From an uncultured bacterium (GTDB lineage: Bacteria > Babelota > Babeliae > Babelales > Vermiphilaceae), in the NCBI GenBank assembly GCA_963701645.1, contig OY969616.1, positions 502,463 through 566,462 on the forward strand: a stretch of DNA of 64,000 nucleotides, given 5' to 3'. Shown one piece after another: positions 6,434-51,428 of the stretch. The notes beneath the pieces were generated by a model. It did not search any database and was not told where the DNA came from. It worked only from the letters and a program-made list of their open reading frames with translations. Made by a program: the position numbers and the translations under genes. How positions within the stretch are numbered: position 1 is the first letter of the stretch; each line of letters opens with the position of its first letter.

Positions 6434-6468
6434 GAACAAATTTTTTTTAACGGTATAAAGGTATTTGA

Positions 6469-18374: not shown

Positions 18375-18950
18375 TTAATTTATTGTTTGTGCATTAATTC
18401 TTTTTTCTGTAATCTCTGTTCCAAAAATTTTTAATGACGAAAAAATTTCAATAGGCGAAATATAATAACTGGGTTCAATAGGTGCAATATCACTGGGAAG
18501 GACTGTATGTTTTTGTTGAATATTGTGCAGTTTGTCGCTGGCCTGCATGGTGATTTTCTTTATTGGTGTACATATTGCTTCATAATTTTCATCATCACAG
18601 TTAAGACCGAAGTCTTTGACTACACAGCCAGGAAAGAATCGTAAACGTAAGTGAACGAGTGGAAACAAAGCAGCTTGAGGGTCTTTGAGCCAAGAAATAA
18701 ATACAGATTCATGATCTGCAATGAATTTTGAAAACTTGCGTGCAATAGAGACATTTATTGGCTGTATTTCTGCTTCTATTTTTTTTGCTATGTCCAGAGG
18801 ACAGCCTCCTACCTTAAGCACTATTTTTTTTTCGAGCCTCATTCGTGAAGGTTCAATTTTTGATGATGCTTCTTTGTTTGCTAATTCGCTGGAATGTAAA
18901 ACATGAGGAGTAATAGAGAGCGTGCTTATAAGAAAAAACAACTTTTTCAT
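18375..18950 (-). CDS. Small secreted hypothetical protein (191 aa)
   Basis: Signal peptide MKKLFFLISTLSITPHVLHSSE. In tandem with 17707-18363. Confidence 0.7.
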   Translation of the reverse strand: MKKLFFLISTLSITPHVLHSSELANKEASSKIEPSRMRLEKKIVLKVGGCPLDIAKKIEAEIQPINVSIARKFSKFIADHESVFISWLKDPQAALFPLVHLRLRFFPGCVVKDFGLNCDDENYEAICTPIKKITMQASDKLHNIQQKHTVLPSDIAPIEPSYYISPIEIFSSLKIFGTEITEKRINAQTIN

Positions 18951-22841: not shown

Positions 22842-23786
22842 ATGAAAAAACTGTATTTATTAGGCATTTTTGCTGTTCTTCTTTTTATCTGCACGTACGT
22901 GTATTTTTTTTATGTACCTGATCGCCTACAAAATAGAGGTGGGCAGAAAAAAAATGTTATAGTTTGTACGACTAGTATTATTGCTGATCTCATGCGTATT
23001 TTGGCACAAAAGCATATGGATGTTATATCACTTATGGGCCCCGGCGTTGACCCGCATGTGTATCGGCCAACAGCGGGAGACATGCAGCGATTGGCACGCG
23101 CAAATATTATTGTATATAATGGGCTGCATCTTGAGGGCAAAATTGAAGATGTTTTTGCCAATATAGGGCGATCTAAAAAAGTAATTATGCTTGCTGATGC
23201 AGTATCATCAGATGAGTTAATTGAAACATCGTTTGCTCATGTCTACGACCCTCATATATGGCATGATGTGCAGTTATGGAAAAAAATAGCATATTATTGT
23301 GCGGAACAACTTTCAAGTTACGATACACAGCATGCAACATCATATGTGTCTGCTGCAGAGATGTATTGCAGAGAGCTTGAAAAGCTTGATGATGACATTC
23401 GCGTACAGTGGAACGCTGTCGCAGTAAATCGACGTGTCATGATTACCGCGCATGATGCATTTGCTTATTATGGGCGGGCATATGGCATTATTGTTGTTGG
23501 TCTTCAGGGAATAAGTACTGATGCACATGTAAGCATGCATGATGTCCAGCGCGTGGTCGATATTATTATCACACACAATGTTGCTGCTATTTTTACTGAA
23601 AACTGTATTCCTGAACGGACTATGAAGGCGGTTTGTGATGCGGTACATGCACAAGGGCGCGAACTCCTGCTTGCCCCTGCACTATTTGCAGATTCTTTGG
23701 GTAACACACAAGAGGGCGGAGCGACCTATGAAGCAATGATGCGCTACAATACACAGATGCTGGTGCAATATCTTGGAGGAAAATAA
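22842..23786 (+). CDS. Metal (Mn/Zn/Fe) ABC transporter substrate-binding protein, TroA/ZnuA family
   Basis: VCTTSIIADL, GVDPHVYRPT, NGLHLEG and TAHDAFAYYGRAYG are typical of cluster A-I binding proteins. N-terminal anchor or signal present. Confidence 0.9.
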   Translation: MKKLYLLGIFAVLLFICTYVYFFYVPDRLQNRGGQKKNVIVCTTSIIADLMRILAQKHMDVISLMGPGVDPHVYRPTAGDMQRLARANIIVYNGLHLEGKIEDVFANIGRSKKVIMLADAVSSDELIETSFAHVYDPHIWHDVQLWKKIAYYCAEQLSSYDTQHATSYVSAAEMYCRELEKLDDDIRVQWNAVAVNRRVMITAHDAFAYYGRAYGIIVVGLQGISTDAHVSMHDVQRVVDIIITHNVAAIFTENCIPERTMKAVCDAVHAQGRELLLAPALFADSLGNTQEGGATYEAMMRYNTQMLVQYLGGK

Positions 23787-23789
23787 TTT

Positions 23790-23817
23790 TTGCATTTTTA
23801 CTCTTTGCTGGTACACT
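23790..23817 (+). promoter_or_regulatory. Putative internal promoter TTGCAT-16-TACACT
   Basis: -35 at 23790-23795 and -10 at 23812-23817, 40 nt before the ATG at 23857, followed by GAAACTAATTTT. It resembles the MKY-family promoters. Confidence 0.4.
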
Positions 23818-23856
23818 GAAACTAATTTTAAATATTCCAAAAAAAAGGATGATCGT

Positions 23857-25452
23857 ATGGTACTGTATCTTTCTCTGGCTCTTCTATTTTTACAAACTGG
23901 CTGTGCGTTTAGTGCGGAAAGAGGACGTGCTTTTTTGATGGGTAGCGGAGAATATGCTGATTGGAATAATCTCTTGCCAAGTGACCCAAAAACTGCTGAT
24001 ATTCCAAAAGATGCTGTTGTTACAATATCTTTGGATGACGGAAAATTTCTAGTAACTGCTGACCATGTCCTTGCTCACGAGTCAAAAATGGTTGAGGATT
24101 GTTTTAAAAAGAAATCGCGGGGCCTGCATTATTCAGAAATAACAGAACAAACAATGCAGAATTTATGTAAACTTTTAAAGCAAGAAGCATATTTATATAG
24201 TTTTGATAAGCAACAAGAGAAGGATATTATATTTGCTGCACACGCATTGCAGTTGAAAACTCTTGATCATGTAAAAAATGTGTGGGATATTCTTGTTGCC
24301 AACCAAGCGCGGAGTGTTTTATGGGGTGCCAATGATTATCTTATGGGCAATGAAGGAGAAGCTTCTGGGCGGAGACGGCTATCTTCTTTTGAAGCAGAGT
24401 TACTTGTAAAAAAGGCAAAAAAATATTTGTATGCTGCGACATTTGATACCATATATTCCAAATCAAAAAACGAAAATCATTATAGTGGCAAACCAATAAT
24501 GGCATATTCTCCACGGGGAGATGCTATAGCGTTAGGGAAAATGATTGTTGCTGGAGAATCTGTTCATATATTTTATCCTGATGTTTCAGAGAAAGCATCT
24601 TTCTGTCCTGAAAAACTAAAGGACCCTTATTATATCAATACTATGCATGGTGTTGAGTCGTTGACATATAATCACAATGGGACATCTTTGGCAGTCGGAT
24701 CTAATGTAGTACAAGTGTGGGATATTGAGACAAATCAACATGATGTACTTCATAATTATGGCGACGTTGTCAGTTATGAAGATCTGCATAAAGGACAACT
24801 AAAGTATTGTTGCCTTGCATATACTGCCGATGGAAAATATCTTGCACATGCGCGAGGTAATACGCTGCTTGTTCGTGATACAAGAACGAGCGAGCCATGC
24901 TTTAAAAACCGTGTAGATTGTCATGACAATCTAACAGCGCTTTGTTGGGGAAGTGATAATACACTGATTACAGCATCGGGTGAAGGCATGATTTCAATAT
25001 TTGATCCAAGGACCTTCTACACCAAGGTGAAATGTTGGCAAGCAAGTAAAAATACTATAAAACATATGCAGTGTCATTCTGGCAAAAAATATATTTTAAC
25101 AGAGGATTTTTTGTACGATTATGGAAATAACACAACAAAATTGTCTTCAAAGAGAAAAGCTGCGTTTTTAGGCTTTACATCAGATGATTACCTCGTCAAA
25201 ATAGGATGGTTTAAAGATTCTTCTGACCCTAGAGTTCAGATAGTTAATGAACAAGATGAAAAAGTTGTTTCATGGCCATCTGAACGGGTAGATGCATTGG
25301 CAATAAATCCTACAAAAAAAATTGATGAATTAGAAATGGTGATAGTAAAGGATATAAATGATGGATATACTATTGATCTGTGGCGAGTGCACAAAATTTC
25401 GCAAGAACGCATGGTGGATACTATAAAACAAATTGCCATAAAAAATGAGTGA
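23857..25452 (+). CDS. Signal-peptide protein with a BTB/Skp1-like domain and WD40-like repeats
   Basis: ATG 23857 with an AAGGA RBS. MVLYLSLALLFLQTGCAFSA signal. VVTISLDDGKFLVTADHVLAHESKMVEDCF...IIFAAHALQLKTLDHV (BTB/Skp1 pattern). WD-like units SLAVGSNVVQVWDIETNQ, YLAHARGNTLLVRDTRT and LITASGEGMISIFDPRT. Confidence 0.8.
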   Translation: MVLYLSLALLFLQTGCAFSAERGRAFLMGSGEYADWNNLLPSDPKTADIPKDAVVTISLDDGKFLVTADHVLAHESKMVEDCFKKKSRGLHYSEITEQTMQNLCKLLKQEAYLYSFDKQQEKDIIFAAHALQLKTLDHVKNVWDILVANQARSVLWGANDYLMGNEGEASGRRRLSSFEAELLVKKAKKYLYAATFDTIYSKSKNENHYSGKPIMAYSPRGDAIALGKMIVAGESVHIFYPDVSEKASFCPEKLKDPYYINTMHGVESLTYNHNGTSLAVGSNVVQVWDIETNQHDVLHNYGDVVSYEDLHKGQLKYCCLAYTADGKYLAHARGNTLLVRDTRTSEPCFKNRVDCHDNLTALCWGSDNTLITASGEGMISIFDPRTFYTKVKCWQASKNTIKHMQCHSGKKYILTEDFLYDYGNNTTKLSSKRKAAFLGFTSDDYLVKIGWFKDSSDPRVQIVNEQDEKVVSWPSERVDALAINPTKKIDELEMVIVKDINDGYTIDLWRVHKISQERMVDTIKQIAIKNE

Positions 25453-25541
25453 TAAAACTCGATAGTAAAATTTTATATCCATGGTACACTGATGTCCTGT
25501 TGAATAAAGAGATATCATTATTTGTACCATGGATTTTTTAT

Positions 25542-26252
25542 ATGGCAGCACTTGCAGTACACCATTTGACCGTTATGTATCATCACGAACCTGTTGTATG
25601 GGATGTGTCACTCACCGTTCCCGCAGGAGTTCTTGGGGCAATTGTTGGGCCAAATGGTGCAGGAAAAACAACATTCTTAAAAGCAATTTTACAGTTAGTA
25701 GACCCATTTGCGGGAACAGTGTTTTGGTTTGGTAAGCAGTATGCAGAGAAGCGTCATGCCATTGCCTATGTTCCTCAGCGCATGAGTGTTGACTGGAATT
25801 TTCCCGCATCAGTCCTTGATGTGGTACTTATGGGACGATATTGCCCTGAGCAATGGTTTTGGAGACCGAATAAACAGGATACAATTTGCGCATATGAGGC
25901 AATTGCGCAAGTGGGGCTCGAGCGATATGCTCATGTTGCCATAGGTCAGCTGTCAGGAGGACAGCAGCAGCGTGTTTTTCTGGCGCGCGCGCTCGTGCAA
26001 GATGCCCTTATTTATTGTATGGATGAACCGTTTACGGGGGTTGATGCGCTGACAGAGCAGATGATGGTAACCTTATTTAAAAAATTATGCGCGCAAGGAA
26101 AAACAATTATCATGGTGCATCACGATTTGCAGACTGTACCTTTGTATTTTGATTGGCTTGCGTTGCTCAATAAATCGTGTATTGCATCGGGGCCGGTCGA
26201 TGCTGTTTTTACTAAAGAATATATTATGGCCACCTACGGCAATTATTGCTAA
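25542..26252 (+). CDS. Metal ABC transporter ATP-binding protein (TroB/ZnuC-like)
   Basis: Walker A GPNGAGKTT, signature LSGGQQQR and Walker B LIYCMDEPF. Start trimmed to ATG 25542. Confidence 0.92.
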   Translation: MAALAVHHLTVMYHHEPVVWDVSLTVPAGVLGAIVGPNGAGKTTFLKAILQLVDPFAGTVFWFGKQYAEKRHAIAYVPQRMSVDWNFPASVLDVVLMGRYCPEQWFWRPNKQDTICAYEAIAQVGLERYAHVAIGQLSGGQQQRVFLARALVQDALIYCMDEPFTGVDALTEQMMVTLFKKLCAQGKTIIMVHHDLQTVPLYFDWLALLNKSCIASGPVDAVFTKEYIMATYGNYC

Positions 26253-26253
26253 C

Positions 26254-27096
26254 ATGCTAAGTCTCTATTACAATTTTCTGATTACCATCTGCGGCACCGT
26301 ACTTTTGAGTATGCTGAGCAGCGCGCTTGGTGTTTTTATTGTGCTGCGGCGGTGGAGTTTGCTCGTTGATGCTCTTGTTCATGCATCGTTGCCTGGTGTT
26401 GCTTGTATGTTTTTGTACTGCGCAACAAAACGTGTTGATTATTTGTTGTATGCAGGATCAGTCTCAAGTTTCTGTGGGGCGATGATTGTGCTGCTGTTAT
26501 GGCACAGGACAACGTTGAAAAAAGACACCGCGCTTGGCATTGTACTTTCCGTTTTTTTTGGTACCGGTTTAGTTCTTATGTCCTGTATCCAGAAAAAGCC
26601 TATAGCTCATCAAGCATTATTACAATCATTTTTATTGGGCAAAGCATCACTTATGCTGTGGGAAGATCTCGTTGCATTGGCTGGTATTGGTGTGCTGGTA
26701 ATTATTGCTCTGTGTGTTCTCTGGCATATTTTTCGCATGATTAGTTTTGATATTAATTATGCGCGATCACGCGGATGTTCTGTTATGCTGTTTGATATTA
26801 TACTTCTTTCTTTGCTTATTCTTGTCACTGTTGCGGGCGTGCAAATTATGGGAGTTGTGCTTATGAGCATGATTGTTATTGCTCCTGCAGCGGCAGCGCG
26901 CCAGTGGACAGCATCATTGTTATTCATGATGCTTCTTGCGCTTTGTTTTGGTACCGGTGCCGGAATTGGTGGTGTTATTTTGAGCACATTTTTCCTTTCA
27001 ATACCCACGGGGCCTACAATTGTTATGCTTGCTGGTTTGATAATTTTTATTTCCTTGCTGTGTGGCCGTGGACAAAGGATTCATCATGTTTCATGA
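26254..27096 (+). CDS. Metal ABC transporter permease (TroC/ZnuB-like)
   Basis: Polytopic hydrophobic protein. ATG lies 1 nt after the ATPase stop. ABC-3 type organisation. Confidence 0.9.
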   Translation: MLSLYYNFLITICGTVLLSMLSSALGVFIVLRRWSLLVDALVHASLPGVACMFLYCATKRVDYLLYAGSVSSFCGAMIVLLLWHRTTLKKDTALGIVLSVFFGTGLVLMSCIQKKPIAHQALLQSFLLGKASLMLWEDLVALAGIGVLVIIALCVLWHIFRMISFDINYARSRGCSVMLFDIILLSLLILVTVAGVQIMGVVLMSMIVIAPAAAARQWTASLLFMMLLALCFGTGAGIGGVILSTFFLSIPTGPTIVMLAGLIIFISLLCGRGQRIHHVS

Positions 27097-28012
27097 GCCG
27101 TTTATTATTAGTATGATACTTGCTTGTTTGGCATCGGTTGTGTGCAGTATTCCCGGAACATTTTTGGTGCTTCGTGGTGTTGCGCTCATGAGTGATGCAA
27201 TTAGTCATACATTATTGTTTGGTATTGTCATGACATTTTTGTGCGTGCAAACACTTCATACACCGCTATTATTTGTTGGTGCAGTATGCTCTGGCCTGAT
27301 GATGGTTTTTGTTGTCGAATGCATTGTCCATACGCGACGCATGACGGAAGATGTGGCAATTGGCACCATATTTCCTATCTTTTTTTCGCTTGGCGTTATT
27401 TTGATGTGTTTATTTGTGCATGATGTCCATCTTGATGTTGATATGGTTCTTTTGGGCGATCTTGCATTTGCTCCCTTTGATCGATTTATCTGCCTGGGAA
27501 TCGATTGTGGTCCCTGGGGGTTGTGGATTTTGAGTAGTGTACTTTGTATCCACGGTGCAGCTATTTTTTGTATGTATTATGCACTTCAGTATGCTTTTTT
27601 TGATATGGAAGGGGCATCAATTATGGGTGTACGCGTGCGTCTTGTGCAGTATGGCCTGATGGCAATTACCGCATTGTCAGCAGTTGCCGCATGCCATGTT
27701 GTTGGAAGCATTGTTGTTGTGGCACTCATGATTACGCCGCCAGCAGGAGCATATTTGTTGACGGAACGAGTTTTTCCCATGCTCATGGTGAGTATTTTTA
27801 TTGGGATCTGTGCATCACTGTGTGGCTATGGAGCAGCGCAGTATGCAGATGTTTCTATTGCAGGGTCAATAGCGGCAGTCAATGGGCTTATTTTTTTGTG
27901 TATCCTCTTTTTTGCTCCGCGCAAAGGAATTATAGGTACCTGGTGGTACGGCCGAGCCTGTCGGCGTGTGTATGCGGAGAAATTGGCGGAAGCCTACTTT
28001 TTAAAAAAGTAG
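27086..28012 (+). CDS. Metal ABC transporter permease (TroD-like)
   Basis: Second polytopic permease, paralogous to the first. ATG 27086 overlaps the upstream stop. Confidence 0.9.
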   Translation: MFHEPFIISMILACLASVVCSIPGTFLVLRGVALMSDAISHTLLFGIVMTFLCVQTLHTPLLFVGAVCSGLMMVFVVECIVHTRRMTEDVAIGTIFPIFFSLGVILMCLFVHDVHLDVDMVLLGDLAFAPFDRFICLGIDCGPWGLWILSSVLCIHGAAIFCMYYALQYAFFDMEGASIMGVRVRLVQYGLMAITALSAVAACHVVGSIVVVALMITPPAGAYLLTERVFPMLMVSIFIGICASLCGYGAAQYADVSIAGSIAAVNGLIFLCILFFAPRKGIIGTWWYGRACRRVYAEKLAEAYFLKK

Positions 28013-30517
28013 TTGCAGCAATTCTGGGAGCGCGCTGGGATCTATTTGTTTTGTTACTGTCGTAATAATGTCTTGTTTTGTCTTTTCAGGTTGCGCATTG
28101 AAAAGTTTGGCAACGTGTTCTACCAGGGATATAAAATTCTTGTCATTCCTCAGATCATTCCAGAAATGTTTTCCCATGCACATTAAAATATATTCGCAGC
28201 ATGCTTTTTGATAGACATCGGTCGTGATAGTTGGGAGTACGCGATTGATATGGGCAACAGAGCCGACTGTTAAAGAATCATCGGTGGCGGTACAGGTATG
28301 CAAGAACTCAACAAAAGCAGATGCATCTTTTTTTGCGATTAAGGCTTCATTGATTTTTTTTTCAAACAAATAAAGTATGCTATTTTCTTGCGGGGTTCGA
28401 ACGAATAATATGCAGAGAATCTCTGCCTGATTAAAGATGTTATTCATATTTGTCGACAGTGCTAAAAATAAAAATAATGGGTCGTTCAGCTGGGTCTGAA
28501 AAATTTTGTTACGCTGATAAAGCTGTTGAGCGGCATGAGGGTAGCATGCAGAAAGATTGCGAATAAGGGAATTTTTTGGCAGCAATGGAAGAATAAGATT
28601 GAGTATGTGTGCTTCTTTTTCAATGGTATTTGCCGTGATAACTTCCAGTTTTGGATGAGTGGGAGAAAAAGTGATCTCCATTTTAACCGGTATTTTATTG
28701 ACAGAACTACTCAATGCTATCAAAGGAGATTGAGTTGTGTGCAGCATTGCATCATTAACTGTTTTTATATTTTCAGATACATCAAAATCAAACACGGTGC
28801 ATAACTCTTCAAAACTGTTTATCTGGGTACCAAAAAAATAATTTATAAGGGAGACAATATTACTGGGATATCCGGCAAGCTCACCAAGGGCATAGCTACT
28901 ATCAACAAATTGGTGGGGACCAAAATTTTCCGAATATTCTTTTCCTTGAATTGGATGCAAAAAAGGCTGATCTGTATTTTTTTGTGCGGGTTGAGAATTA
29001 TCAGTTTTTATTTTGAATAAATATTTGATGCCGGGAATGTCGGACATGAGTTCTGTGAGTTCTGTATGTAAGGGGATTTTTTCTACGATTGTTGCATCGG
29101 GATAGTGTGTAAAAAATTCTTGCAGAGCAGCACCATGCAGCTTTAATATTGTTTTATCAAAAGGAATACCTTTATCATCTAAATACGTTGTTATTCTTGG
29201 TATAATCAGTGATGGAATAAAGATTGCTTGTTCAAAATTATAGGCACCAATTTTGGCTATAATAATCCGAAGAAAATTCATAAACACCGCTTCAGCGCAG
29301 TTCTGAAAACCCATATTTTTTACAGAAACTCCCTGAAATCGTATTTTAGGAGGCAAGCTGGTGCTGAGATTCCAGAGGGCTTCATAGGCAAGTTGTTCAT
29401 AATGTGTGTTGACAAAAGATTTAATTTCTTTTTTGAACTTGGGCTTCCATATTTTCCAGTGCTCACTTTTCTTTGTTATATTTTTTGTGTGATCAAGCTT
29501 TGCATTAAATAACTGCGCCGCATCTTTTTTAATAATAGAGGGATTAAACTGATTGAAATAGATAAAAAAATCGTCTTTGGTTGTTGCTTGTTCATAAAGG
29601 AGCGACAATAAAATGGTATGAGGCGTATATTTCGGATAGATTGCAGTGTCGGTATTGTGCCCAATATGTCCTGCTTCTCTGAGGGCACCTACAAGAGTTT
29701 TTGCCATTTTTGCTGCAGCTATTTTCATAAAATGCCATGATTTTTTATTTTCTTTTTCTTGAACGTTCAGTTTTTTTAATTCCTCGACCAAATTTTTCAG
29801 GTTTGTTATGTATTGTGATTTTCTGTCGGATTGTACCGATTCAAAAAGTTTTTCTATAAAACCTTCTTTTGCATCAGCCAAGCGTTGCAAGCTTCTCTTC
29901 CATTGCTGCTCAGTAAACTGGAAGTATCTTTTTTGCTGTAAAATTTTGGCTAGTGCGAGATCAGTGTCTTTTTCCATGAGGGTAAAATTATTTTTTGCTC
30001 GAATGCCCAGATCCTTAACTGCCTTTGCGATATTTTTCGTTGTTTTAGCTGCTGGTGTTGCAGAAAATATAATTTCTGCCAAAGACTTTTGCAATGTCTT
30101 TACGTGCTTTTCATCGCCCCCATCAAACTCATCTATTTTTGATAATAATTGTCCGATAATATCAGCCGTAAGATGTGTGGCGGGCTTGGTGGGGACATTT
30201 GTTCTGCCAAACTGTCCCGGAACACGATGGAAAAGGCTTAAAATGAGATGCATGGTACTGTCTGCTTTTATGATTTTTTCGACCACGTCATTGGCATCAA
30301 GTTCCACCGTTGCATTACCCCAGACATAATATTTTTCAAGAAGCCCTGATTCGATCCAAATAAAGCCATGAAAAGGAGATAAATATTTCTTTTCTTCAAT
30401 GACCGTATCATACAAACCCCGCAGATCCCGCTTGTCTGCAATGCGAGGGTTGATGACAAAAAAAAGAGAGCTCGTGATAAAAACGAGAAAAAAAATTATT
30501 TGGTGTTTTTTGATCAT
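28001..30517 (-). CDS. Giant-paralog family member 1 (838 aa, shortest), N-terminal membrane anchor
   Basis: MIKKHQIIFFLVFITSSLFFVIN anchor, then the conserved module RIADKRDLRGLYD..YVWGNATVELDAN. Conserved FQNCAEAVFMNFLR and GPHQFVD motifs. Last gene of the operon. Confidence 0.9.
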   Translation of the reverse strand: MIKKHQIIFFLVFITSSLFFVINPRIADKRDLRGLYDTVIEEKKYLSPFHGFIWIESGLLEKYYVWGNATVELDANDVVEKIIKADSTMHLILSLFHRVPGQFGRTNVPTKPATHLTADIIGQLLSKIDEFDGGDEKHVKTLQKSLAEIIFSATPAAKTTKNIAKAVKDLGIRAKNNFTLMEKDTDLALAKILQQKRYFQFTEQQWKRSLQRLADAKEGFIEKLFESVQSDRKSQYITNLKNLVEELKKLNVQEKENKKSWHFMKIAAAKMAKTLVGALREAGHIGHNTDTAIYPKYTPHTILLSLLYEQATTKDDFFIYFNQFNPSIIKKDAAQLFNAKLDHTKNITKKSEHWKIWKPKFKKEIKSFVNTHYEQLAYEALWNLSTSLPPKIRFQGVSVKNMGFQNCAEAVFMNFLRIIIAKIGAYNFEQAIFIPSLIIPRITTYLDDKGIPFDKTILKLHGAALQEFFTHYPDATIVEKIPLHTELTELMSDIPGIKYLFKIKTDNSQPAQKNTDQPFLHPIQGKEYSENFGPHQFVDSSYALGELAGYPSNIVSLINYFFGTQINSFEELCTVFDFDVSENIKTVNDAMLHTTQSPLIALSSSVNKIPVKMEITFSPTHPKLEVITANTIEKEAHILNLILPLLPKNSLIRNLSACYPHAAQQLYQRNKIFQTQLNDPLFLFLALSTNMNNIFNQAEILCILFVRTPQENSILYLFEKKINEALIAKKDASAFVEFLHTCTATDDSLTVGSVAHINRVLPTITTDVYQKACCEYILMCMGKHFWNDLRNDKNFISLVEHVAKLFNAQPEKTKQDIITTVTKQIDPSALPELLQLLF

Positions 30518-30524
30518 AATTATC

Positions 30525-33500
30525 CTACGATTCCAACGCTTTTTTTACGGCTCTTAAAATTGGTTCTTTCTTTTTTTCCAAAAGCTTCTTTTCTGTGCGC
30601 AATGTTTTAAGATCATAATTTGTAGGATCTTCTGCCTCAAGCTTTTCAATTTTTTCTTTGCGAATCTGTATTTGTGTATAGAACAAATTTGATAGCGGGT
30701 TAAGAGATTCATATAATTGGGAATTGGTCATTTTTGTAGCAATAATTCTGTGCATTTTTACTAATATGTTTTCATATGGTTTTGTAATACAAAATGTAAA
30801 AAATGAGGTGAGGCAAGTTTTGATAAGCGGTGTAGTTTGTGCATCAAGACTTTCTGCTTTATTATAAAATGAAAGCATATTATCTATTATGTTGGCGTAA
30901 CAATTTTGAAAGGCTCTGATATCCTCCGATTCCCTTATTAAATCTGTCAATGTCTTGCTTGTATCAGTTGCAAGAAATTTTTCTATACCGCTTGCAAAAA
31001 ATGTTTTTATAAAAGGGAAAAATAGAGTTTTTTGATATTCTATAATTTCTTTTGTCGCTGAAATAATAGTATGGGCAAGAAATTCTGACATGTCCGGTTC
31101 ACTGAGATATGTGGTGATGTATTGTACATTAAATAATTTATTTGCAATCTCTTCTGTGATGGAATATAACGATGTTCCTGGTGTAATATTTTTGTTAATG
31201 AGTTTTAATAATAATATGCCTGCATCGTGAAAAGATCCGAAATCTTCCATGAATTTTGATTGATGAAGGAGTGTAAAGAGTAATGGAAATAAGAAGGAAG
31301 CATCAGCCTCTATAATTTCAGTTTCAGTACTCCATGCATTATGTTTAAACATATTACTGAGAATAGATTGTATTTTTTTTTCTTTTTCTTCTGGAGTGAA
31401 AAAATCAGTTTTTGTGTGGTGTAGTACTTGCAAATAGTTTACTTTATTAGTGCGAGGAAAAAGTTCTCCTTCCAGTGCTAATTTTAAACAAGGAATAAGT
31501 GAATCAGGTATTGTTTGCAATTCAGAACTTGTCAAACTTTCAATGATAATAGCTTGTTGTACGTCTATAGGTTGGCTATTAAGCCATGTAGTAACGGTAT
31601 CAAGAATAGAAACAAAGTGAGAGTCGGTAGCAAACTGTTCCCAATGGTGGTTAACAATAAATTTTAATACATCTGGATAAACGAGCCCTTTTAAAGTTTG
31701 CTTTTTCTTTGAATCTGGTGGGAAACAAGAAAGTAATTTTTCCATGAGCGTGAGTGAATGCTCGCTCAAAATGTGTTCTTTTTTTGCAAAAGCACTTATT
31801 ATTTCTCCGATAAGATAGAGATTTGGTGAGACTATAAATGAAGCAAGCATTTTTTCTGATGTGACGTTTAAAAATTTATTCGGTTCAAATTCATTATGCA
31901 TGATTGATGTGTAAAGAAATTCTCCCTGTACTTTAGATTTCTTGATGTTACTTGATAAAGCAACAAATAAAAGATAAGCACTATCCAAAACTGTTTTGCT
32001 TACATTAAGGCGAATTTCAATTTGTTCCTTGGCATACGGGTAACAAGCGGTAAGATTTTGTATGGAAATATCTGAGGTAATCAAGGGAAGAAGATGATCT
32101 AACATTGGTTCATGTCGATCGAATGATTTATTGGTATCGACAAATTCTAAATTGGTATGACCTGTTGACAAAGAAATGGTAAGTGTTATAGGGGTATTAT
32201 TTATGATGCTGTGCATTGTTACCTTGGGAACTTTTTCTATATTCTGTTCAAAATAAGTGACCCATATATTTTTATCATCTGCTATTTGTACATCTCCGGT
32301 AAGGGCAAAATCAAAAGCGGTACACAGTTCTGAAAAGGAGGTAAAATTAGTACCAAAAAAATGATTTACTATAGTGATAAAACTGCTCGGATATCCTGCA
32401 AGTTCAAACAATGTATACTGATCATCAACAAGCTCATGATTGCCAAATTCTTCACCGTATGTTTTACCAGGAAGGGGATGCAACATGGGCTCCCTACTAT
32501 CCTTATATGCTGGTGCAGAACCATCATTTTTTATTTTTTGTAAATATTTAATACCCGGCAAGTCTGAAGAAATATCTGTCAATGTTTGGTTAATGGAAAA
32601 ACCATCAACGATTGTGGCATTACTGTATTTTTGTAAAAAATTTTGGAAAGGGAGAATATTTTCTTGCATTTTTGCTGCATTAAAGGGAATATTATTGGTA
32701 GTGAAAAATTGACTAATTTTTGAGGGAAGATCATCGGCGATAAAGAGAGATTTGCTAAAATCATATGCTCCCATTTTTGCCACAAGAACTCGAAGCAAGG
32801 TCATGATCGTTGCTTCTCCACAGTCAATAAATTCGCAACCCTTAATAGATACCCTGCTGTCTCGTATTTTAGGAGGCAAAAGTGATCCAAGGTTATAAAT
32901 AGCTTCATAGGCAAGTTGTTCAAATTGATACATAATATATGATTCTATATTGTTCCGCATACCTCTTGCCTGGCTTGTAATATCCAATGTATGATCAAGC
33001 TGTCCTTCAAAATAACCTTCTTCAGGGTGTATAATGGCGGGAGAAAATTGTTTGAAATATATAAGAAAATCATCTTTTCTAGCTGCTGCATCATATAAAA
33101 AGGAAAGTAAAATCATCTGTGTTGTGTAGGGAGGATAGCTTGGATCTTTTTGACTCGTGCGGATAATGCTGCCACATTCTTTGAGAGATTCGACCATATA
33201 TTTTGCAATGTTAGTTACCGACGATTTTAAAACGTTGAACTCTTTTGTTATAGAATCTAGTGAAGCTGTACTGTTTTTAAAATTTTCAACATATTCGGCA
33301 ACAAGGTTGGCAAGCTGTTCCTTGTCTTCTGCGGTGATAGAATCAAATAATTTTCTTATCTGTTCATTGCTGAGTTTGCTCAGATTTTGCAAACTTTTTT
33401 TCCACTGAGATTTGGTGAAATTGAAATATTGTTTAGTTTTTTTATTATTTTGTAGCTGTTGGATTGAGGGGTTTTGGAGAAGTTGCATTGTTTTATTGGC

Positions 33501-34013
33501 TATATCGACCAATATTTTTTCGCTATTCTGCATGCTATGTGCTGTGGGCAAAATATTCATAAAAATTGTGACCAGCTCTTTTTGCAATGCCGCCGCTTCT
33601 TTTTCTGTTTTCCCCTCATAGCGGTCAATGGCGGCAACCATTTTGCCAATGCTTTCAGGCGTGAGATAGCTTGCAGGGTTATTTTTTAATGTTGTTCTGC
33701 CAAACTGCCCCGGAACACGATGGAAAAGGCTTAAAATGAGACGCATGGTATTATCGGCGCTGATTACTTTTTTGACTACGCCATTAGCATCAAGTTCCAC
33801 CGTTGCATTACCCCAGACATAATATTTTTCAAGAAGCCCTGATTCTACCCAGATAAAACCATGAAAAGGGGACAGATACTTTTTTTCTTCAATGACTGCA
33901 TCATACAAACCCCGCAAATCCCGCTTATCTGCAATGCGGGACGAGAGGGGTGAGATAATGGTGATGAGAGAAAGGAATAAAAAAAATGTATATATATGTT
34001 TTGTGAATATCAT
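30525..34013 (-). CDS. Giant-paralog family member 2 (1162 aa)
   Basis: Same N-terminal module. FIDCGEATIMTLLR and GNHELVD motifs. Its stop lies 7 nt before the member 1 start. Confidence 0.9.
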   Translation of the reverse strand: MIFTKHIYTFFLFLSLITIISPLSSRIADKRDLRGLYDAVIEEKKYLSPFHGFIWVESGLLEKYYVWGNATVELDANGVVKKVISADNTMRLILSLFHRVPGQFGRTTLKNNPASYLTPESIGKMVAAIDRYEGKTEKEAAALQKELVTIFMNILPTAHSMQNSEKILVDIANKTMQLLQNPSIQQLQNNKKTKQYFNFTKSQWKKSLQNLSKLSNEQIRKLFDSITAEDKEQLANLVAEYVENFKNSTASLDSITKEFNVLKSSVTNIAKYMVESLKECGSIIRTSQKDPSYPPYTTQMILLSFLYDAAARKDDFLIYFKQFSPAIIHPEEGYFEGQLDHTLDITSQARGMRNNIESYIMYQFEQLAYEAIYNLGSLLPPKIRDSRVSIKGCEFIDCGEATIMTLLRVLVAKMGAYDFSKSLFIADDLPSKISQFFTTNNIPFNAAKMQENILPFQNFLQKYSNATIVDGFSINQTLTDISSDLPGIKYLQKIKNDGSAPAYKDSREPMLHPLPGKTYGEEFGNHELVDDQYTLFELAGYPSSFITIVNHFFGTNFTSFSELCTAFDFALTGDVQIADDKNIWVTYFEQNIEKVPKVTMHSIINNTPITLTISLSTGHTNLEFVDTNKSFDRHEPMLDHLLPLITSDISIQNLTACYPYAKEQIEIRLNVSKTVLDSAYLLFVALSSNIKKSKVQGEFLYTSIMHNEFEPNKFLNVTSEKMLASFIVSPNLYLIGEIISAFAKKEHILSEHSLTLMEKLLSCFPPDSKKKQTLKGLVYPDVLKFIVNHHWEQFATDSHFVSILDTVTTWLNSQPIDVQQAIIIESLTSSELQTIPDSLIPCLKLALEGELFPRTNKVNYLQVLHHTKTDFFTPEEKEKKIQSILSNMFKHNAWSTETEIIEADASFLFPLLFTLLHQSKFMEDFGSFHDAGILLLKLINKNITPGTSLYSITEEIANKLFNVQYITTYLSEPDMSEFLAHTIISATKEIIEYQKTLFFPFIKTFFASGIEKFLATDTSKTLTDLIRESEDIRAFQNCYANIIDNMLSFYNKAESLDAQTTPLIKTCLTSFFTFCITKPYENILVKMHRIIATKMTNSQLYESLNPLSNLFYTQIQIRKEKIEKLEAEDPTNYDLKTLRTEKKLLEKKKEPILRAVKKALES
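31405..31864. repeat. 460-nt block identical (1 mismatch at 31800) to 38323-38782
   Basis: Line-by-line comparison of member 2 and member 4 DNA, offset 6918. Confidence 0.9.
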
Positions 34014-34015
34014 AA

Positions 34016-37000
34016 TTATTCTCCTGTTATTTTTTTGACAGCACTGAGTATGGACTGTTTATCATTTTCTAAATCATTTTTTCTATCGAAAAAACGACGG
34101 AGGTCGGGATTATCGGGATCTTCTTTTTCAAGAGTATTAATTTTTTCTGTATAGAGTTGTAATTGTGTCTCAATTAAGTTGGGCAAGACTTTAAAACATT
34201 CATACAGTTGGGGATCTGCTATTTCGATATTGAGAATATCTTGCAATTTTGGCGCAACAGATGAGTTGTATTGTGTAATACAAGATGTCAAAAAGGATGT
34301 CAGGCATGTTTTGATAAATGGCAGAGTAAGTTCATCGATGTTTTCTGCCTCATTATAGAAAAGTAACATTTGCTCCACTACAGTAGCATAAAATAATAGA
34401 AAATCGACAGATTCTTGGTCATCAAAGATGGAGCTTTCTAAGAAAAATTTTTCTATAAAAGAATAACATATCGTTTTTTGATTGACTGCGATATCACCTA
34501 TAAGAAATGTTAAATAATCGAGAAGAGATGGAATGTCTTTGCTATTTAAATGGGTACGAATGTATCGTATATTAAATATCTTGCTCGCTACATTTTCGGT
34601 TATGGCATAGAGAGGTGTTCCTGGAATTATGTCTTCATTAAGAAGTTCGTTTAATAGTTCTATTCCATCATTTGCAAAAGCGATAGGACCTTTTGGTTCT
34701 GCTGTATTCATTTTTTTGATTAAAAAAGGGAAAAGAAAAGAAAGACCTTGTTCTACAATATTCTTTGCAGTTTCCCATATACTTTTTTCGGGGAAAATTT
34801 TAGACTCAAAAGGCTGTATAATTTTTTCTTTTTCTTCTTCTGTGAAAATAGTACCAGTATTATCTACTACCCTTATATAAGATATGATTCCAGCGTACTC
34901 TTGGGTCAAGGGACCATGATTGATTGATGCTTTTATGATGGGAATTAAGGTATCAGGTATTGCTTGTGGGGAAAATGTTTTTAGTACATTAAAGATAATG
35001 TTCTGTTGCATATCAATTCTTTGCTTTGACAGCCATGTGTTAATGGTATCAAGGATAGTGATAAATTCAGAATTAGTAGCAAATTTTTCCCAATTATTCT
35101 TAAAGATAATTTTTAATATTTTTTCATACGCGTTTTCCTTTTGTATATCTGATGTAATACAAGAAAGGAATTTATGCATTAAAGCAAAAGTATGAGTGCT
35201 TAACTGTTTCAGGTCAAAAAAATTGGTTAAAAAATAAACTGACAGATTTTCATCATTTTTTGATACGACCATATTTACAATTTTTTCTGTTACGCTATAC
35301 AAAGGTTTGGTTGGTTCAAATTGGTTTTTACTGATTAATTTGTCAAGAAGATAAAACAGAGATTTACTAATGTTGCCTGATAAAGCAAAAAATGGAAGAT
35401 ATGCATCGTCTGATAAATTACTTAAGTAAATGCGCTCTTCCGTGCCTTGTTTTGCACGGGGATAGCATGCGCTTAAATTTCTCATGGAAAGTTCTGATGC
35501 ATGGGGGAGTATTACAATCAATATAGATTCATCTTTTTTGGGAGATTCACCAGCTTCATTTAAAAGCTCTATCGCATTATGTCTCGTAGAAAAAGAAAGT
35601 GTGAATGTTATGGGTATTTTATTGATAATTGTTTTTATCGTTATAAACCAAGTTTTATGGATGTTGTTTCTATAAAACTCTTCCCATATTTTTTTGTCAT
35701 TCCCTGTGTCAAGATTTCCTGAACCAGTACAGTCAAAAACAGTACATAATTCTTCAAAAGATGTTATGTGAGTACCAAAAAAATGATTCACCATAGCAAT
35801 ATAACTGCTTGGATATGGAGCAAGTTCAAAAAGTGTATAACTATCATCAACAAGTTCATGAGGGCCAAAATCTTCTCCATATGCTGTATTGGCAACAGGG
35901 TGAATTACTGGTATTTTGTTATCCCTGACTGCCGCACTAGAAAGATCATTTTTTATTTTTTGTAAATATTTGATTCCCGGTATATTGGTAAAAATATCAG
36001 TCAATGCTTGGGACATTTTTGTATCAGATACAATAGTAGCATCACTGTATTTTTTAAAAAATTCTTGCAGAGAAGCAATGTTTTTTTGCATCAAATCTTG
36101 ATTAAATGGAACATGTTGCTCGTGAAAAAACTTTGTAATTTTTGATGGTATTGCATTTGCATCAAACAGGGTAGTTTCAAAATTGTATGCTCCTATTTTT
36201 GCCATAATAATGCGAAAAAATGACATAAGGGCTATTTCTGTGCAGTTACTAAATTTAATATTTTTGATAAAAATAGGATCATCTGTAAAAGATATTTTGG
36301 GTGGCAAGGATGATGCAAGATTATAAATGGCTTCATAAGCAATTTGTTCAAAATGAGTATTAATAAAATAAAGTTGGTGTTCGGGATCGGGATTTTTTTC
36401 TACATTGAGTCTATAATCTAATTTTCCTTCAAAAAGTTGTTCGCTATTTTCTTGTAAAATTGAAGGATCAAATTGCTTGAAATATATCATAAAATCATCT
36501 TTTGTTTTTGCTTTTTCATACAGCAAAGAAAGTAAGATCATGTGTGTTGTATAAGAGGGATAAATTGGCTCATAGTTTGTTGGAATGAATCCACATTCTT
36601 TGAGTGATTCGACAATCATTTTGCTTACTTTTGGAACAGCAAGCCGCAATGCTTTAGATTGCTTTTTACTCTTTTCTTCCTCTATAGCTGTTTTGAAGTC
36701 GCCAACAAGGCTGATAATTTTGTCTCTATAGAGTTCCTTTTCTGTATCCTGTCTTTCTTCAAATAATTGGCGTATGTTTTTGTCAGGTAATGCGCTTAAT
36801 TTTTGCATACTATTTTTCCAATTTTTTGGTGTAAAATTAAAAAATTGTTTTGTTTTTTTATTTTGCTGCAGTTTTTTTATGTAAGGAATTTGGTCAAGCA
36901 ATATGAGTTCTTTACGAATGGCCTCCATTTTTGGCTCAAAGACGCCCATAAGAATATCTTGGATTTCCTGTTCCAGCATGGGGCCTCTTGCTTTTTCTGG

Positions 37001-37414: not shown

Positions 37415-37421
37415 AATTATC

Positions 37422-47540: not shown

Positions 47541-47625
47541 AGCAGTACCCCGGCATAAAGTTCATCTTTTTTATCGCTTTTACTATAGGAAATTTGTGAC
47601 CGTGGAGGCAAGCATTTCTCCTTTT

Positions 47626-49446: not shown

Positions 49447-49447
49447 G

Positions 49448-51253: not shown

Positions 51254-51332
51254 AGACACTCCTTTTGCGCAGCATAGCATTCTTGTTCTTGTTATACCAC
51301 AGAAAAGAGATTTTGTGCCAACAATTTTCTAC

Positions 51333-51363
51333 AAAAAAAAGCCCGAGACATCTCGGGCTTTTT
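51333..51363 (-). terminator. Rho-independent terminator (bidirectional-looking) after 51429-53447
   Basis: GCCCGAGA/TCTCGGGC stem at 51341-51358, flanked by an A8 run (51333-51340) and a T5 run (51359-51363). Confidence 0.8.
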
Positions 51364-51428
51364 AAGTACCTATTTTGTTGCTTTATAAAGGTATGTATAT
51401 GTTCTTACATTACCCTAACAAGCACCAA

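What the first reader, a model, noticed from the sequence alone, without database searches (positions are those of the whole stretch)
23790..25452. Eukaryote-like BTB/Skp1 + WD40 protein with a signal peptide, inserted between the binding-protein and ATPase genes of a metal ABC importer
Seen: troA-like (22842-23786), ATPase (25542-26252) and two permeases (26254-28012) form a canonical operon. A 531-aa gene with its own promoter-like element and RBS lies between the first two. Residues about 52-150 (nt about 24010-24307) follow the BTB/POZ-Skp1 pattern: VVTISLDDGKFLVTADHVLAHESKMVEDCF ... IIFAAHALQLKTLDHV. From memory, Skp1 has [30 protein letters not shown] ... LILAANYLDIKGLLD. The C-terminal half (nt about 24481-25300) has WD40-like units ending in VWD, VRD and IFD. 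Established knowledge: BTB and WD40 modules are building blocks of eukaryotic cullin-RING ubiquitin ligases. Bacterial copies are typically effectors of intracellular bacteria. Unusual: a Sec-type signal (possible lipobox LQTGC), and the location inside a transporter operon.
Basis: partly seen in the sequence, partly recalled or inferred. Interest (0 to 1): 0.65.

Follow-up and report, generated by a model that had tools for sequence, protein, structure and literature searches.

The report
Orphan secreted WD40 protein splitting a metal-transporter operon
A gene found only in this lineage, encoding an exported WD40-repeat protein, sits inside a metal-uptake operon of a Dependentiae (TM6) bacterium; this fits the many secreted eukaryote-like proteins already known in these parasites, and the proposed BTB/Skp1 domain could not be confirmed.

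Summary
The 531-aa ORF (23857-25452, +) is real. It lies between a ZnuA/TroA-type binding protein gene and the ATPase and permease genes of a metal ABC importer. It has an AAGGA ribosome-binding site and a strongly hydrophobic N-terminus.

- **WD40 part: supported.** Residues about 215-420 match WD40/beta-propeller profiles.
- **BTB/Skp1 part: not established.** Pfam gives no BTB, Skp1 or T1 hit even at E<=10. hhalign against a 7-seed BTB superfamily alignment gives P=1.8e-4 (probability 49%), but subfamily profiles are weak and Skp1 gives P=0.21. An AlphaFold run fed a BTB alignment gave pLDDT 52 and no BTB match in Foldseek.
- **Orphan status.** The only relative found in about 1.8 billion representative sequences is an 85%-identical metagenomic fragment with frame-breaking deletions (dN/dS 0.42).
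- **Insertion.** Five Dependentiae relatives have the binding-protein and ATPase genes directly adjacent. A sixth has a different, unrelated insert at the same junction. So this is a lineage-specific insertion, not a transporter subunit.
- **Signal peptide.** Published Dependentiae genomes show that signal peptides on eukaryote-like repeat proteins are normal in this phylum, so that feature is not unusual. The lipobox is non-canonical, and no promoter-like site was found.

Best reading: a Sec-exported, fast-evolving protein that probably interacts with the host. Verdict: new member of a known kind, modest interest.

The parts
22842..23786 (+). Cluster A-I metal-binding protein gene (TroA/ZnuA/AztC-like), first gene of the ABC importer
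   Evidence: PF01297 E=1.3e-67. The best NCBIfam match is AztC at E=4e-54, below the curated cut-off. It is 39-44% identical to Dependentiae homologues.
23787..23856 (+). 70-nt spacer with the ribosome-binding site AAGGA (23845-23849), 7 nt before the ATG
   Evidence: Sequence read. No promoter-like or terminator-like site lies in this spacer. It has no stable RNA fold.
23857..25452 (+). Inserted orphan gene, 531 aa (called X in this report)
   Evidence: ORF. The only relative is the fragment L027/P0004, 85% identical at the nucleotide level. dN/dS is 0.42.
23857..23916 (+). N-terminal hydrophobic export signal (aa 1-20, MVLYLSLALLFLQTGCAFSA), with a non-canonical lipobox
   Evidence: It has the highest Kyte-Doolittle hydropathy in the protein. 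It is conserved in L027 (LLFLQTGC.FS). The start of the protein has no K/R, and Q sits at position -3 of the Cys.
24007..24306 (+). N-terminal alpha/beta region (aa 51-150) with a weak, unconfirmed resemblance to the BTB core
   Evidence: hhalign against the 7-seed BTB alignment gives P=1.8e-4, probability 49%, over 79 columns in register. 0 of 200 shuffles reach the real score. It is the top hit among 1247 control ORFs at E=1e-3. Against this: Pfam is negative, subfamily profiles are weak, and the AlphaFold run fed a BTB alignment gave pLDDT 52 with no BTB match in Foldseek.
24307..24492 (+). Predicted helical linker (aa 151-212), the most conserved segment of the protein
   Evidence: 92% amino-acid identity to the L027 orthologue, against 75-79% for the flanking domains. 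Nucleotide identity reaches 96% around aa 166-195. Both low-confidence models predict helices here.
24493..25392 (+). WD40-type beta-propeller region (aa 213-512). Repeats are recognisable at about aa 216-225 (weak), 266-289, 320-331 and 360-374. The C-terminal blades are inferred only.
   Evidence: Pfam beta-propeller families match at E=1e-5 to 1e-9 over aa 262-419. A WD repeat HMM built here finds four repeats, the first only weakly (E=0.28). Residues 385-531 give no propeller hit.
25477..25540 (+). Perfect 12-bp inverted repeat forming a hairpin, followed by a run of six T. It ends 1 nt before the ATPase start codon.
   Evidence: Inverted repeat I8. The RNA fold is -26.7 kcal/mol, z=-2.9, and 0 of 200 shuffles fold as well. 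The 12-mer occurs nowhere else in the window.
25542..26252 (+). ABC transporter ATPase gene
   Evidence: PF00005 E=9.5e-27. Best NCBIfam matches are MntA/AztA-like.
26254..27096 (+). ABC-3 permease gene 1
   Evidence: PF00950 E=3e-51.
27062..28012 (+). ABC-3 permease gene 2
   Evidence: PF00950 E=1e-36.

Best explanation
The gene encodes a lineage-specific, fast-evolving protein that is exported through the Sec pathway. A cleavable or anchoring N-terminal signal is followed by a roughly 100-residue alpha/beta domain of uncertain fold (possibly a very divergent BTB-like module), then a strongly conserved helical linker, then a WD40-type beta-propeller.

It belongs to the large pool of secreted, eukaryote-like repeat proteins that Dependentiae (TM6) parasites are thought to release into or towards their protist host. 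There, the propeller would act as a protein-binding platform.

It is not a component of the metal transporter. It landed at the binding-protein/ATPase junction, a site that has accepted a foreign insert in at least one other Dependentiae lineage. It is probably transcribed with, or just after, the binding-protein gene. A hairpin plus T-run then separates it from the ATPase gene.

Shown: the ORF, the WD40 repeats, the hydrophobic N-terminus, orphan status, absence from relatives' operons, and purifying selection. Inferred: actual export, the host target, and any ubiquitin-ligase link.
For: - **WD40.** WD40/propeller profiles match.
- **Export signal.** The N-terminal hydrophobic segment is conserved in the orthologue.
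- **Orphan.** Only itself and two weak WD40 hits appear among 5.8 billion clusters. One 82%-identical fragment appears among 1.84 billion representatives. A search with the C-terminal half finds three WD40 hits at E=0.3-4.6.
- **Host organism.** It is a Dependentiae bacterium. TroA is 39-44% and GyrA 71-74% identical to Dependentiae/Babeliales genomes assembled from metagenomes (MAGs), and the gyrA-dprA-troA-ATPase-permease order is conserved.
- **Insertion.** The binding-protein and ATPase genes are adjacent (gaps of about 20-40 nt) in L001, L003, L004, L005 and L007. L006 carries two unrelated reverse-strand orphan genes at the same junction.
- **Composition.** G+C and GC3 are lower than in the operon neighbours.
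- **Selection.** dN/dS is 0.42: 62 synonymous differences over 290 sites against 104 non-synonymous over 1069 sites.
- **Genomic setting.** The window is packed with tandem families of signal-bearing orphan paralogues.
- **Literature.** In Babela massiliensis, 79 of 126 ankyrin proteins have signal peptides, WD40 and other propeller proteins are present, and type II secretion is the only secretion system detected (PMC4378268). In Chromulinavorax, 44% of coding sequences and 78% of ankyrin proteins carry signal peptides (PMC6561590).
Against: - There is no experimental or transcript evidence.
- The signal lacks a basic n-region, so export is a prediction.
- The sister copy (L027) carries 7-nt and 13-nt frame-breaking deletions, so the gene may be dispensable or decaying.
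- Only about four WD40 repeats are recognisable. The C-terminal 145 residues give no profile hit.
- No confident 3D model could be obtained.
- Its position next to a zinc-type binding protein leaves room for a transporter-related role.
Confidence: 0.5

Rival explanations
1. The protein mimics a BTB (or Skp1-like) plus WD40 substrate adaptor. Once delivered to the host cytosol, it recruits a host cullin (Cul3) through the BTB module and a host target through the propeller, redirecting ubiquitination.
For: - hhalign of residues 49-163 (with the orthologue) against a 7-seed BTB superfamily alignment gives P=1.8e-4, probability 49%, over 79 columns covering the BTB core from its first strand to the start of its last helix, in register.
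- The real score is 29.0, against a shuffle mean of 11.7, sd 2.5 and maximum 22.3.
- An HMM built from the same seeds ranks X first and its orthologue second among 1247 control ORFs, at E=1e-3 and 7e-3, with the next hit at 0.1.
- MAFFT independently places BTB domains on residues 53-140 in the same register.
- BTB-plus-repeat effectors are known in amoeba-associated Chlamydiae, and BTB domains in giant viruses (PMC4209131).
Against: - Pfam BTB, BTB_2 and Skp1_POZ give no hit at E<=10, whether on the N-terminal 250 residues or on the 111-residue core alone.
- A PDB sequence search finds 0 hits at E<=10.
- Subfamily profiles are weak: ZBTB/Keap1/SPOP P=0.006 (probability 6%), Skp1 0.21, Elongin C 0.076, KCTD5 0.14.
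- The mixed 120-sequence HMM gives no hit.
- AlphaFold given a BTB alignment produced pLDDT 52 (below 50 over the proposed strand-strand-helix part). Foldseek found no BTB among its top 50 matches and nothing at E<=0.001.
- The resemblance to the Keap1 3-box (the cullin-3-binding helices just after the BTB domain) is not significant (P=0.12).
- The BTB-like part is the less constrained domain (dN/dS 0.48).
- The hypothesis was chosen after the resemblance had been seen, so the single-test P-values are optimistic.
Confidence: 0.2
2. A periplasmic accessory of the metal importer. The exported beta-propeller would capture zinc (or another metal) and hand it to the neighbouring binding protein, as AztD does for AztC.
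For: - The gene lies directly after the binding-protein gene, on the same strand, with no terminator between them.
- The binding protein's best NCBIfam match is AztC.
- AztD is an exported beta-propeller encoded in the azt operon, and it transfers zinc to AztC (PMC6689063).
- X has an export-type N-terminus and a propeller.
Against: - X gives no sequence match to AztD or to any other bacterial periplasmic propeller in the PDB at E<=1. Its best PDB matches are eukaryotic WD40 proteins.
- X has no NCBIfam hit at E<=10.
- There is no His-rich tract and no H-x-x-H-x-D motif. His makes up 3.2% of residues.
- Five Dependentiae operons work without any such gene, and a sixth has an unrelated insert at the same place.
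- AztD has 8 blades and about 400 aa with no extra N-terminal domain.
- The AztC match of the binding protein is far below the curated cut-off (184 against 350 bits).
Confidence: 0.12
3. A decaying or selectively near-neutral orphan gene. It would be a recent acquisition or de-novo-like ORF that is tolerated in the operon but has no maintained function.
For: - The only known relative is broken into three ORFs by 7-nt and 13-nt deletions.
- dN/dS of 0.42-0.48 is high for a functional domain.
- There are no homologues elsewhere.
- G+C is low.
Against: - The 531-codon frame is intact and has a good ribosome-binding site.
- dN/dS is clearly below 1 (pS 0.21 against pN 0.10, z of about 4.5, computed from the numbers).
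- The linker is 92% conserved at the protein level while third codon positions diverge.
- Recognisable WD40 repeats are retained.
Confidence: 0.12
4. A housekeeping cell-envelope propeller, similar to BamB (a lipoprotein propeller) or TolB (an N-terminal alpha/beta domain plus a propeller).
For: The architecture (signal, N-terminal alpha/beta domain, then a propeller) recalls TolB. A Cys follows the hydrophobic segment, as in lipoproteins.
Against: - A housekeeping protein would have homologues across the phylum, and none exist.
- X gives no PDB sequence match to TolB or BamB.
- The Pfam hits are to WD40 families, not to the PD40 (TolB-type) or PQQ (BamB-type) repeat families.
- The lipobox is non-canonical.
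Confidence: 0.04

Closest known systems
Secreted eukaryote-like repeat proteins of Dependentiae (ankyrin, WD40, other propellers, F-box) described in Babela massiliensis and Chromulinavorax destructans
   Same: Same phylum (by synteny and best matches). Sec-type signal on a eukaryote-type protein-interaction repeat domain. Lineage-specific and fast-evolving. Sits in a genome region rich in signal-bearing orphan families.
   Different: No sequence homologue exists in any published Dependentiae genome or metagenome apart from one fragment. It has an additional N-terminal domain of unknown fold. It is located inside a housekeeping transporter operon rather than in an effector island.
BTB-plus-repeat substrate adaptors of cullin-3 ligases: eukaryotic BTB-Kelch proteins; from memory, the BTB-WD40 proteins KCTD3/SHKBP1 and the 'BTB/POZ and WD-repeat' proteins of mimivirus; and the BTB-LRR family PEX1 of Protochlamydia (PMC4209131)
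   Same: Domain order (small N-terminal alpha/beta module, helical linker, C-terminal propeller) and overall size. There is weak in-register similarity to the BTB core.
   Different: The BTB fold is not confirmed by Pfam, PDB sequence search or structure prediction. No 3-box or BACK similarity (the region after the BTB domain that helps bind cullin-3) was found. The protein carries a Sec signal, which eukaryotic and viral members lack. No relative was found in viral contigs.
AztD, the periplasmic beta-propeller zinc metallochaperone of the AztABCD transporter (PDB 6CK1, 6CMK)
   Same: An exported beta-propeller encoded beside a cluster A-I metal-binding protein gene.
   Different: No detectable sequence similarity. 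None of the conserved His ligand motifs or His-rich tracts are present. X has an extra N-terminal domain. The gene is absent from orthologous operons of relatives.

Membership tests
WD40 repeat / beta-propeller | Significant match to WD40 or WD40-type propeller profiles | tested here: met
   Eleven propeller-clan Pfam families match at E=1e-9 to 3e-2 over aa 262-419. PF00400 scores 27.3 bits against a cut-off of 27 on the C-terminal half, but 24.4 bits on the full protein.
WD40 repeat / beta-propeller | A closed propeller of 6-8 blades | tested here: inconclusive
   Four repeats are recognised at about aa 216, 266, 320 and 360. Residues 385-531 give no profile hit. Seven blades can be drawn by eye. 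Both AlphaFold models were low-confidence.
BTB/POZ (PF00651), T1/BTB_2 (PF02214), Skp1_POZ (PF03931) | Match to the family profile HMM | tested here: not met
   No BTB-clan hit at E<=10 on aa 1-250 or aa 48-158. Caveat: HMMER's filters drop most hits above about 0.1.
BTB/POZ superfamily | Profile-profile similarity covering the core (three strands, five helices) in register | tested here: inconclusive
   Against the 7-seed superfamily alignment: P=1.8e-4, probability 49%, 79 columns, and above all 200 shuffles. Against ZBTB/Keap1/SPOP: P=0.006. Skp1: 0.21. Elongin C: 0.076. KCTD5: 0.14.
BTB/POZ superfamily | BTB fold in a 3D model | tested here: not met
   The single-sequence AlphaFold run gave pLDDT 33.7. 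The run fed a BTB alignment gave pLDDT 52 and pTM 0.32. Foldseek against the PDB found no BTB in its top 50 and nothing at E<=0.001. The alignment was shallow (14 rows), so this is a weak negative.
Cullin-3 adaptor (BTB plus 3-box) | 3-box/BACK helices after the BTB domain, and cullin binding | tested here: inconclusive
   The resemblance of aa 175-200 to the Keap1 3-box region is not significant (P=0.12). Cullin binding cannot be tested with these tools.
Sec signal peptide | N-terminal hydrophobic core of about 10 residues followed by a small-residue cleavage site | tested here: met
   The core LYLSLALLFL has the highest hydropathy in the protein. AFS-A or TGC-A are possible cleavage sites. 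The segment is conserved in the orthologue. There is no basic n-region, and no dedicated signal-peptide predictor was available.
Bacterial lipoprotein (lipobox) | [LVI][ASTVI][GAS]C with a basic n-region (the PROSITE PS51257 rule, from memory) | tested here: not met
AztD zinc metallochaperone | Sequence homology to AztD, conserved His ligands at sites 1 and 2, and a His-rich tract | tested here: not met
   No AztD chain appears among the PDB hits at E<=1. There is no NCBIfam hit at E<=10. X has no HxxHxD motif or His-rich tract. The defining features are taken from PMC6689063.
Core component of the Tro/Znu/Azt-type ABC importer | Conserved presence in orthologous operons | tested here: not met
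   X is absent from L001, L003, L004, L005 and L007, where the binding-protein and ATPase genes are adjacent. L006 has an unrelated insert.

The most novel reading that the evidence does not exclude
The N-terminal module is a genuinely divergent BTB domain. That would make this the first BTB-WD40 cullin-3 adaptor mimic seen in Dependentiae, and one that reaches the host through a Sec signal and type II secretion or vesicles, rather than through a type III or type IV injection system.
Probability: 0.17. Interest if true: 0.6.

Novelty: new member of a known kind. Interest (0 to 1): 0.3.

Why it matters
If the protein is exported to the host, it adds one more orphan candidate effector to a phylum whose host-manipulation tools are almost entirely uncharacterised. 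It also shows that such genes can land inside housekeeping operons. The binding-protein/ATPase junction has taken different inserts in two lineages.

If the BTB reading were true, ubiquitin-ligase mimicry by BTB adaptors would extend beyond the Chlamydiae and giant viruses to a bacterium whose cultured relative (Babela massiliensis) has type II secretion as its only detected secretion system. As the evidence stands, this is an ordinary example of Dependentiae genome content.

Tried and rejected
1. Single-sequence AlphaFold of the whole protein gave pLDDT 33.7 and is unusable.
2. AlphaFold of residues 45-215 with a 14-row BTB alignment gave pLDDT 52. Foldseek on that model returned only noise. 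This test was circular by design and still did not produce a BTB fold.
3. An exhaustive phmmer search with residues 20-260 against 1.84 billion representatives found one orthologous fragment only.
4. Word-indexed searches with the whole protein and with the C-terminal half found only weak WD40 hits.
5. The viral-contig scan found no relatives. Two metagenome scans (a protein pattern and an exact 37-mer) also found nothing, and missed even L027, so that contig is evidently not in that collection.
6. PDB sequence searches gave nothing for the N-terminus and only marginal eukaryotic WD40 hits for the whole protein.
7. NCBIfam gave no hit for X at E<=10. Pfam on the linker alone gave no hit either.
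8. The apparent Keap1 3-box/BACK resemblance in the linker is not significant.
9. No direct repeats flank the insert that would indicate a mobile element.
10. Rfam found nothing credible on the region.
11. A search for aztD-like genes beside distant TroA homologues found only ZigA/CobW-type GTPases and unrelated genes.
12. A mixed 120-sequence BTB/Skp1/KCTD HMM gave no hit. Its MAFFT alignment of heterogeneous families is probably poor.
Full report
**What is in the sequence.** An ORF runs from 23773 to 25452 on the + strand. This report calls the product X. The longer TTG start at 23773 overlaps the end of the upstream gene and has no ribosome-binding site. Upstream is a ZnuA/TroA-family metal-binding protein gene (22842-23786, PF01297 E=1e-67). 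Downstream are an ABC ATPase gene (25542-26252) and two ABC-3 permease genes (26254-27096, 27062-28012). NCBIfam places all four nearest the Azt, Mnt and Slo metal importers, but below the curated cut-offs. The promoter-like element is not reproduced: no site in the 70-nt spacer reaches 9 of 12 matches to the sigma-70 consensus.

**Whose genome this is.** The binding protein's closest homologues in one-genome-per-species GTDB contigs are 39-44% identical. They come from Dependentiae/Babeliales MAGs, or from MAGs under other labels that share the same synteny. GyrA is 71-74% identical to their copies, and the order gyrA-dprA-troA-ATPase-permease-permease recurs in L004, L005 and L006 (L002 shares it as far as troA, where the contig ends). 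The window itself is dense with tandem families of orphan proteins that bear signal-like N-termini. These include four paralogues at 28001-40991, four at 45969-53447, and several smaller sets, none with a Pfam match. That is the genome style described for Babela massiliensis and Chromulinavorax destructans.

**The gene is an insert, and the site is reused.** In L001, L003, L004, L005 and L007 the binding-protein and ATPase genes are separated by only about 20-40 nt. Here they are 1.75 kb apart. L006 also has a gap of about 1.6 kb at the same junction. It is filled by two reverse-strand orphan genes (92 and 311 aa) with no Pfam hit and no detectable similarity to X. X has lower G+C (0.368, GC3 0.265) than its operon neighbours (0.42-0.46, GC3 0.33-0.40). 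No flanking direct repeats mark a mobile element.

**How unique it is.** A search of 5.8 billion protein clusters returned only the protein itself and two 314-aa WD40 proteins from short metagenomic contigs (E=1e-4, about 35% identity over 20% of the query). An exhaustive phmmer search with residues 20-260 against 1.84 billion representatives found one hit, P0004, at 82% identity. P0004 lies on a 1391-nt JGI contig (L027) that is 85% identical in DNA to 23866-25276. That copy is split into three ORFs by 7-nt and 13-nt deletions. Over 453 aligned codons, dN/dS is 0.42 (N-terminal part 0.48, WD part 0.35). So the gene has been under purifying selection as a coding sequence, but it may be decaying in the sister lineage. 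The most conserved segment is the linker at aa 151-212, at 92% identity. Its first and second codon positions are nearly invariant while third positions diverge. The viral-contig scan and both metagenome scans added nothing.

**The C-terminal half: WD40 confirmed.** Eleven Pfam families of the beta-propeller clan match residues about 262-419, at E down to 1e-9. PF00400 reaches its gathering score when the C-terminal half is scanned alone. The best PDB sequence matches are eukaryotic WD40 proteins (TAF5L, SWD3, BUB3), at marginal E-values. A WD repeat HMM built here finds repeats at about aa 216, 266, 320 and 360, the first only weakly. Residues 385-531 give no profile hit. A seven-blade propeller spanning about aa 213-512 is therefore an inference from strand patterns by eye and in low-confidence models. 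'Eukaryote-like' describes the repeat type only. The protein is too divergent for any phylogeny, so transfer from a eukaryote can be neither supported nor excluded.

**The N-terminal domain: BTB/Skp1 not established.**
- Against the claim: Pfam shows no BTB, BTB_2 or Skp1_POZ hit at E<=10 on residues 1-250 or on the 111-residue core, and the PDB sequence search finds nothing at E<=10.
- For the claim: I built a 7-seed BTB superfamily alignment (PLZF, BCL6, KEAP1, SPOP, SKP1, Elongin C, KCTD5). A database search returned 97-100% identical proteins for five of the seven seeds, which confirms that those sequences are genuine; BCL6 and SPOP drew no close match. hhalign of X plus its orthologue against this alignment gives P=1.8e-4, probability 49%, over 79 columns in register from the first strand to the start of the last helix.
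- Controls in favour: none of 200 column shuffles reached the real score (29.0, against mean 11.7 and maximum 22.3). An HMM from the same seeds ranks X first and its orthologue second among 1247 control ORFs (E=1e-3 and 7e-3, next 0.1). MAFFT gives the same register.
- The signal is fragile: ZBTB/Keap1/SPOP alone give P=0.006 (probability 6%), the Skp1 family 0.21, Elongin C 0.076 and KCTD5 0.14.
- Structure prediction failed twice. The single-sequence run gave pLDDT 33.7. A run deliberately given a BTB alignment reached only pLDDT 52, and below 50 over the proposed strand-strand-helix part. Its model matched no BTB structure in Foldseek.
- An apparent resemblance of the linker to the Keap1 3-box is not significant (P=0.12).
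- My estimate is about 30-35% that a divergent BTB-like fold is present. The specific Skp1 comparison is not supported.

**Export signal.** Residues 2-12 are the most hydrophobic stretch in the protein. The segment LLFLQTGC.FS is conserved in the orthologue. No K/R precedes the hydrophobic core, and the Cys has Q at position -3, so the canonical lipobox rule is not met. A Sec signal or N-terminal anchor is still the simplest reading. In this phylum that is the norm, not an oddity. Most Babela ankyrin proteins carry signal peptides (some Babela protein families have atypical ones), and type II secretion was the only system detected there. In Chromulinavorax, 44% of all coding sequences carry them.

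**Downstream hairpin.** Between the X stop codon and the ATPase start codon lies a perfect 12-bp inverted repeat (25477-25488 and 25523-25534). It encloses a smaller stem and is followed by TTTTTT. As RNA it folds to -26.7 kcal/mol (z=-2.9), and no shuffle folds as well. The 12-mer is unique in the window. The hairpin ends 1 nt before the ATPase ATG, and its 3' arm covers the GGA that may serve as that gene's ribosome-binding site. It could be a terminator or attenuator, or a transcript-stabilising hairpin that sets binding-protein against membrane-component stoichiometry. This is inference only.

**Most likely function, and the rivals.**
- The best-supported reading (about 0.5) is a Sec-exported, lineage-specific WD40 scaffold of the Dependentiae effector-like class. 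It would have inserted by chance into a permissive junction of the metal-importer operon.
- An AztD-like metallochaperone role (about 0.12) is worth naming, because AztD is an exported beta-propeller encoded with an AztC-type binding protein. However, X shares no sequence, His motifs or size with AztD, and the relatives' operons lack any such gene.
- A decaying orphan (about 0.12) is suggested by the broken sister copy, but is opposed by dN/dS below 1 and the conserved linker.
- A TolB- or BamB-like housekeeping role (about 0.04) is excluded in practice by the lack of any homologues.

**Verdict.** This is a new, orphan member of a known kind (secreted eukaryote-like repeat proteins of obligate intracellular Dependentiae). 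It has an unresolved N-terminal domain and an unusual but explicable genomic position. Interest is modest.

Noticed in passing
L006:8907-10484: A related Dependentiae MAG carries a different insert at the same binding-protein/ATPase junction. It consists of two reverse-strand orphan genes (92 and 311 aa) with no Pfam hit and no detectable similarity to X. This suggests the junction is a recurrent landing site.
   Followed up: partly
window:25477-25540: A perfect 12-bp inverted repeat (ATCCATGGTACA / TGTACCATGGAT) with an inner stem and a following T6 run. It folds to -26.7 kcal/mol (z=-2.9), ends 1 nt before the ATPase start codon, and covers that gene's likely ribosome-binding site. It could be a terminator, an attenuator or an mRNA-stabilising hairpin.
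   Followed up: partly
window:28001-40991 (- strand): Four tandem paralogues (838, 1162, 1132 and 1189 aa; 39-62% identical) lie immediately downstream of the ABC operon. All have signal-like hydrophobic N-termini and no Pfam domain.
   Followed up: partly
window:45969-53447 (- strand): A second tandem family of four orphan paralogues (523-672 aa, 25-32% identical), with hydrophobic N-termini and no Pfam domain.
   Followed up: partly
window:5540-7431; 11788-17659; 17707-18950: Further small paralogue sets. One pair (5540-7431) and one trio (11788-17659) show BLAST similarity; the pair at 17707-18950 is inferred only from near-identical N-termini. All have signal-like N-termini, in keeping with birth-and-death evolution of secreted proteins in this genome.
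   Followed up: no
L027:1-1391 (JGI metagenome 3300004092): The only relative of the gene is 85% identical in DNA but is split into three ORFs by 7-nt and 13-nt deletions. It is either a pseudogene in the sister lineage or an assembly artefact.
   Followed up: partly
window:24352-24480 (aa 166-207 of X): The helical linker between the two domains is the most conserved part of the protein: 92% amino-acid and up to 96% nucleotide identity to the orthologue, with changes concentrated at third codon positions. This hints that the linker, rather than the BTB-like part, is functionally critical.
   Followed up: partly
L009:9281-10540; L022:2687-3784: Distant TroA/AztC-like loci in Poribacteria and Chloroflexota have ZigA/CobW-type zinc-chaperone GTPase genes next to the binding-protein gene. 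This points to zinc-regulated contexts for this family of binding proteins.
   Followed up: no
L028:428-1372; L029:656-1600: The two closest WD40 matches (P0003, P0002; 314 aa) share short specific motifs with X (LKDPY, YNHNGT, F.NR..HDN). They lie on short marine or other metagenomic contigs of unknown organism, so their origin could not be determined.
   Followed up: partly
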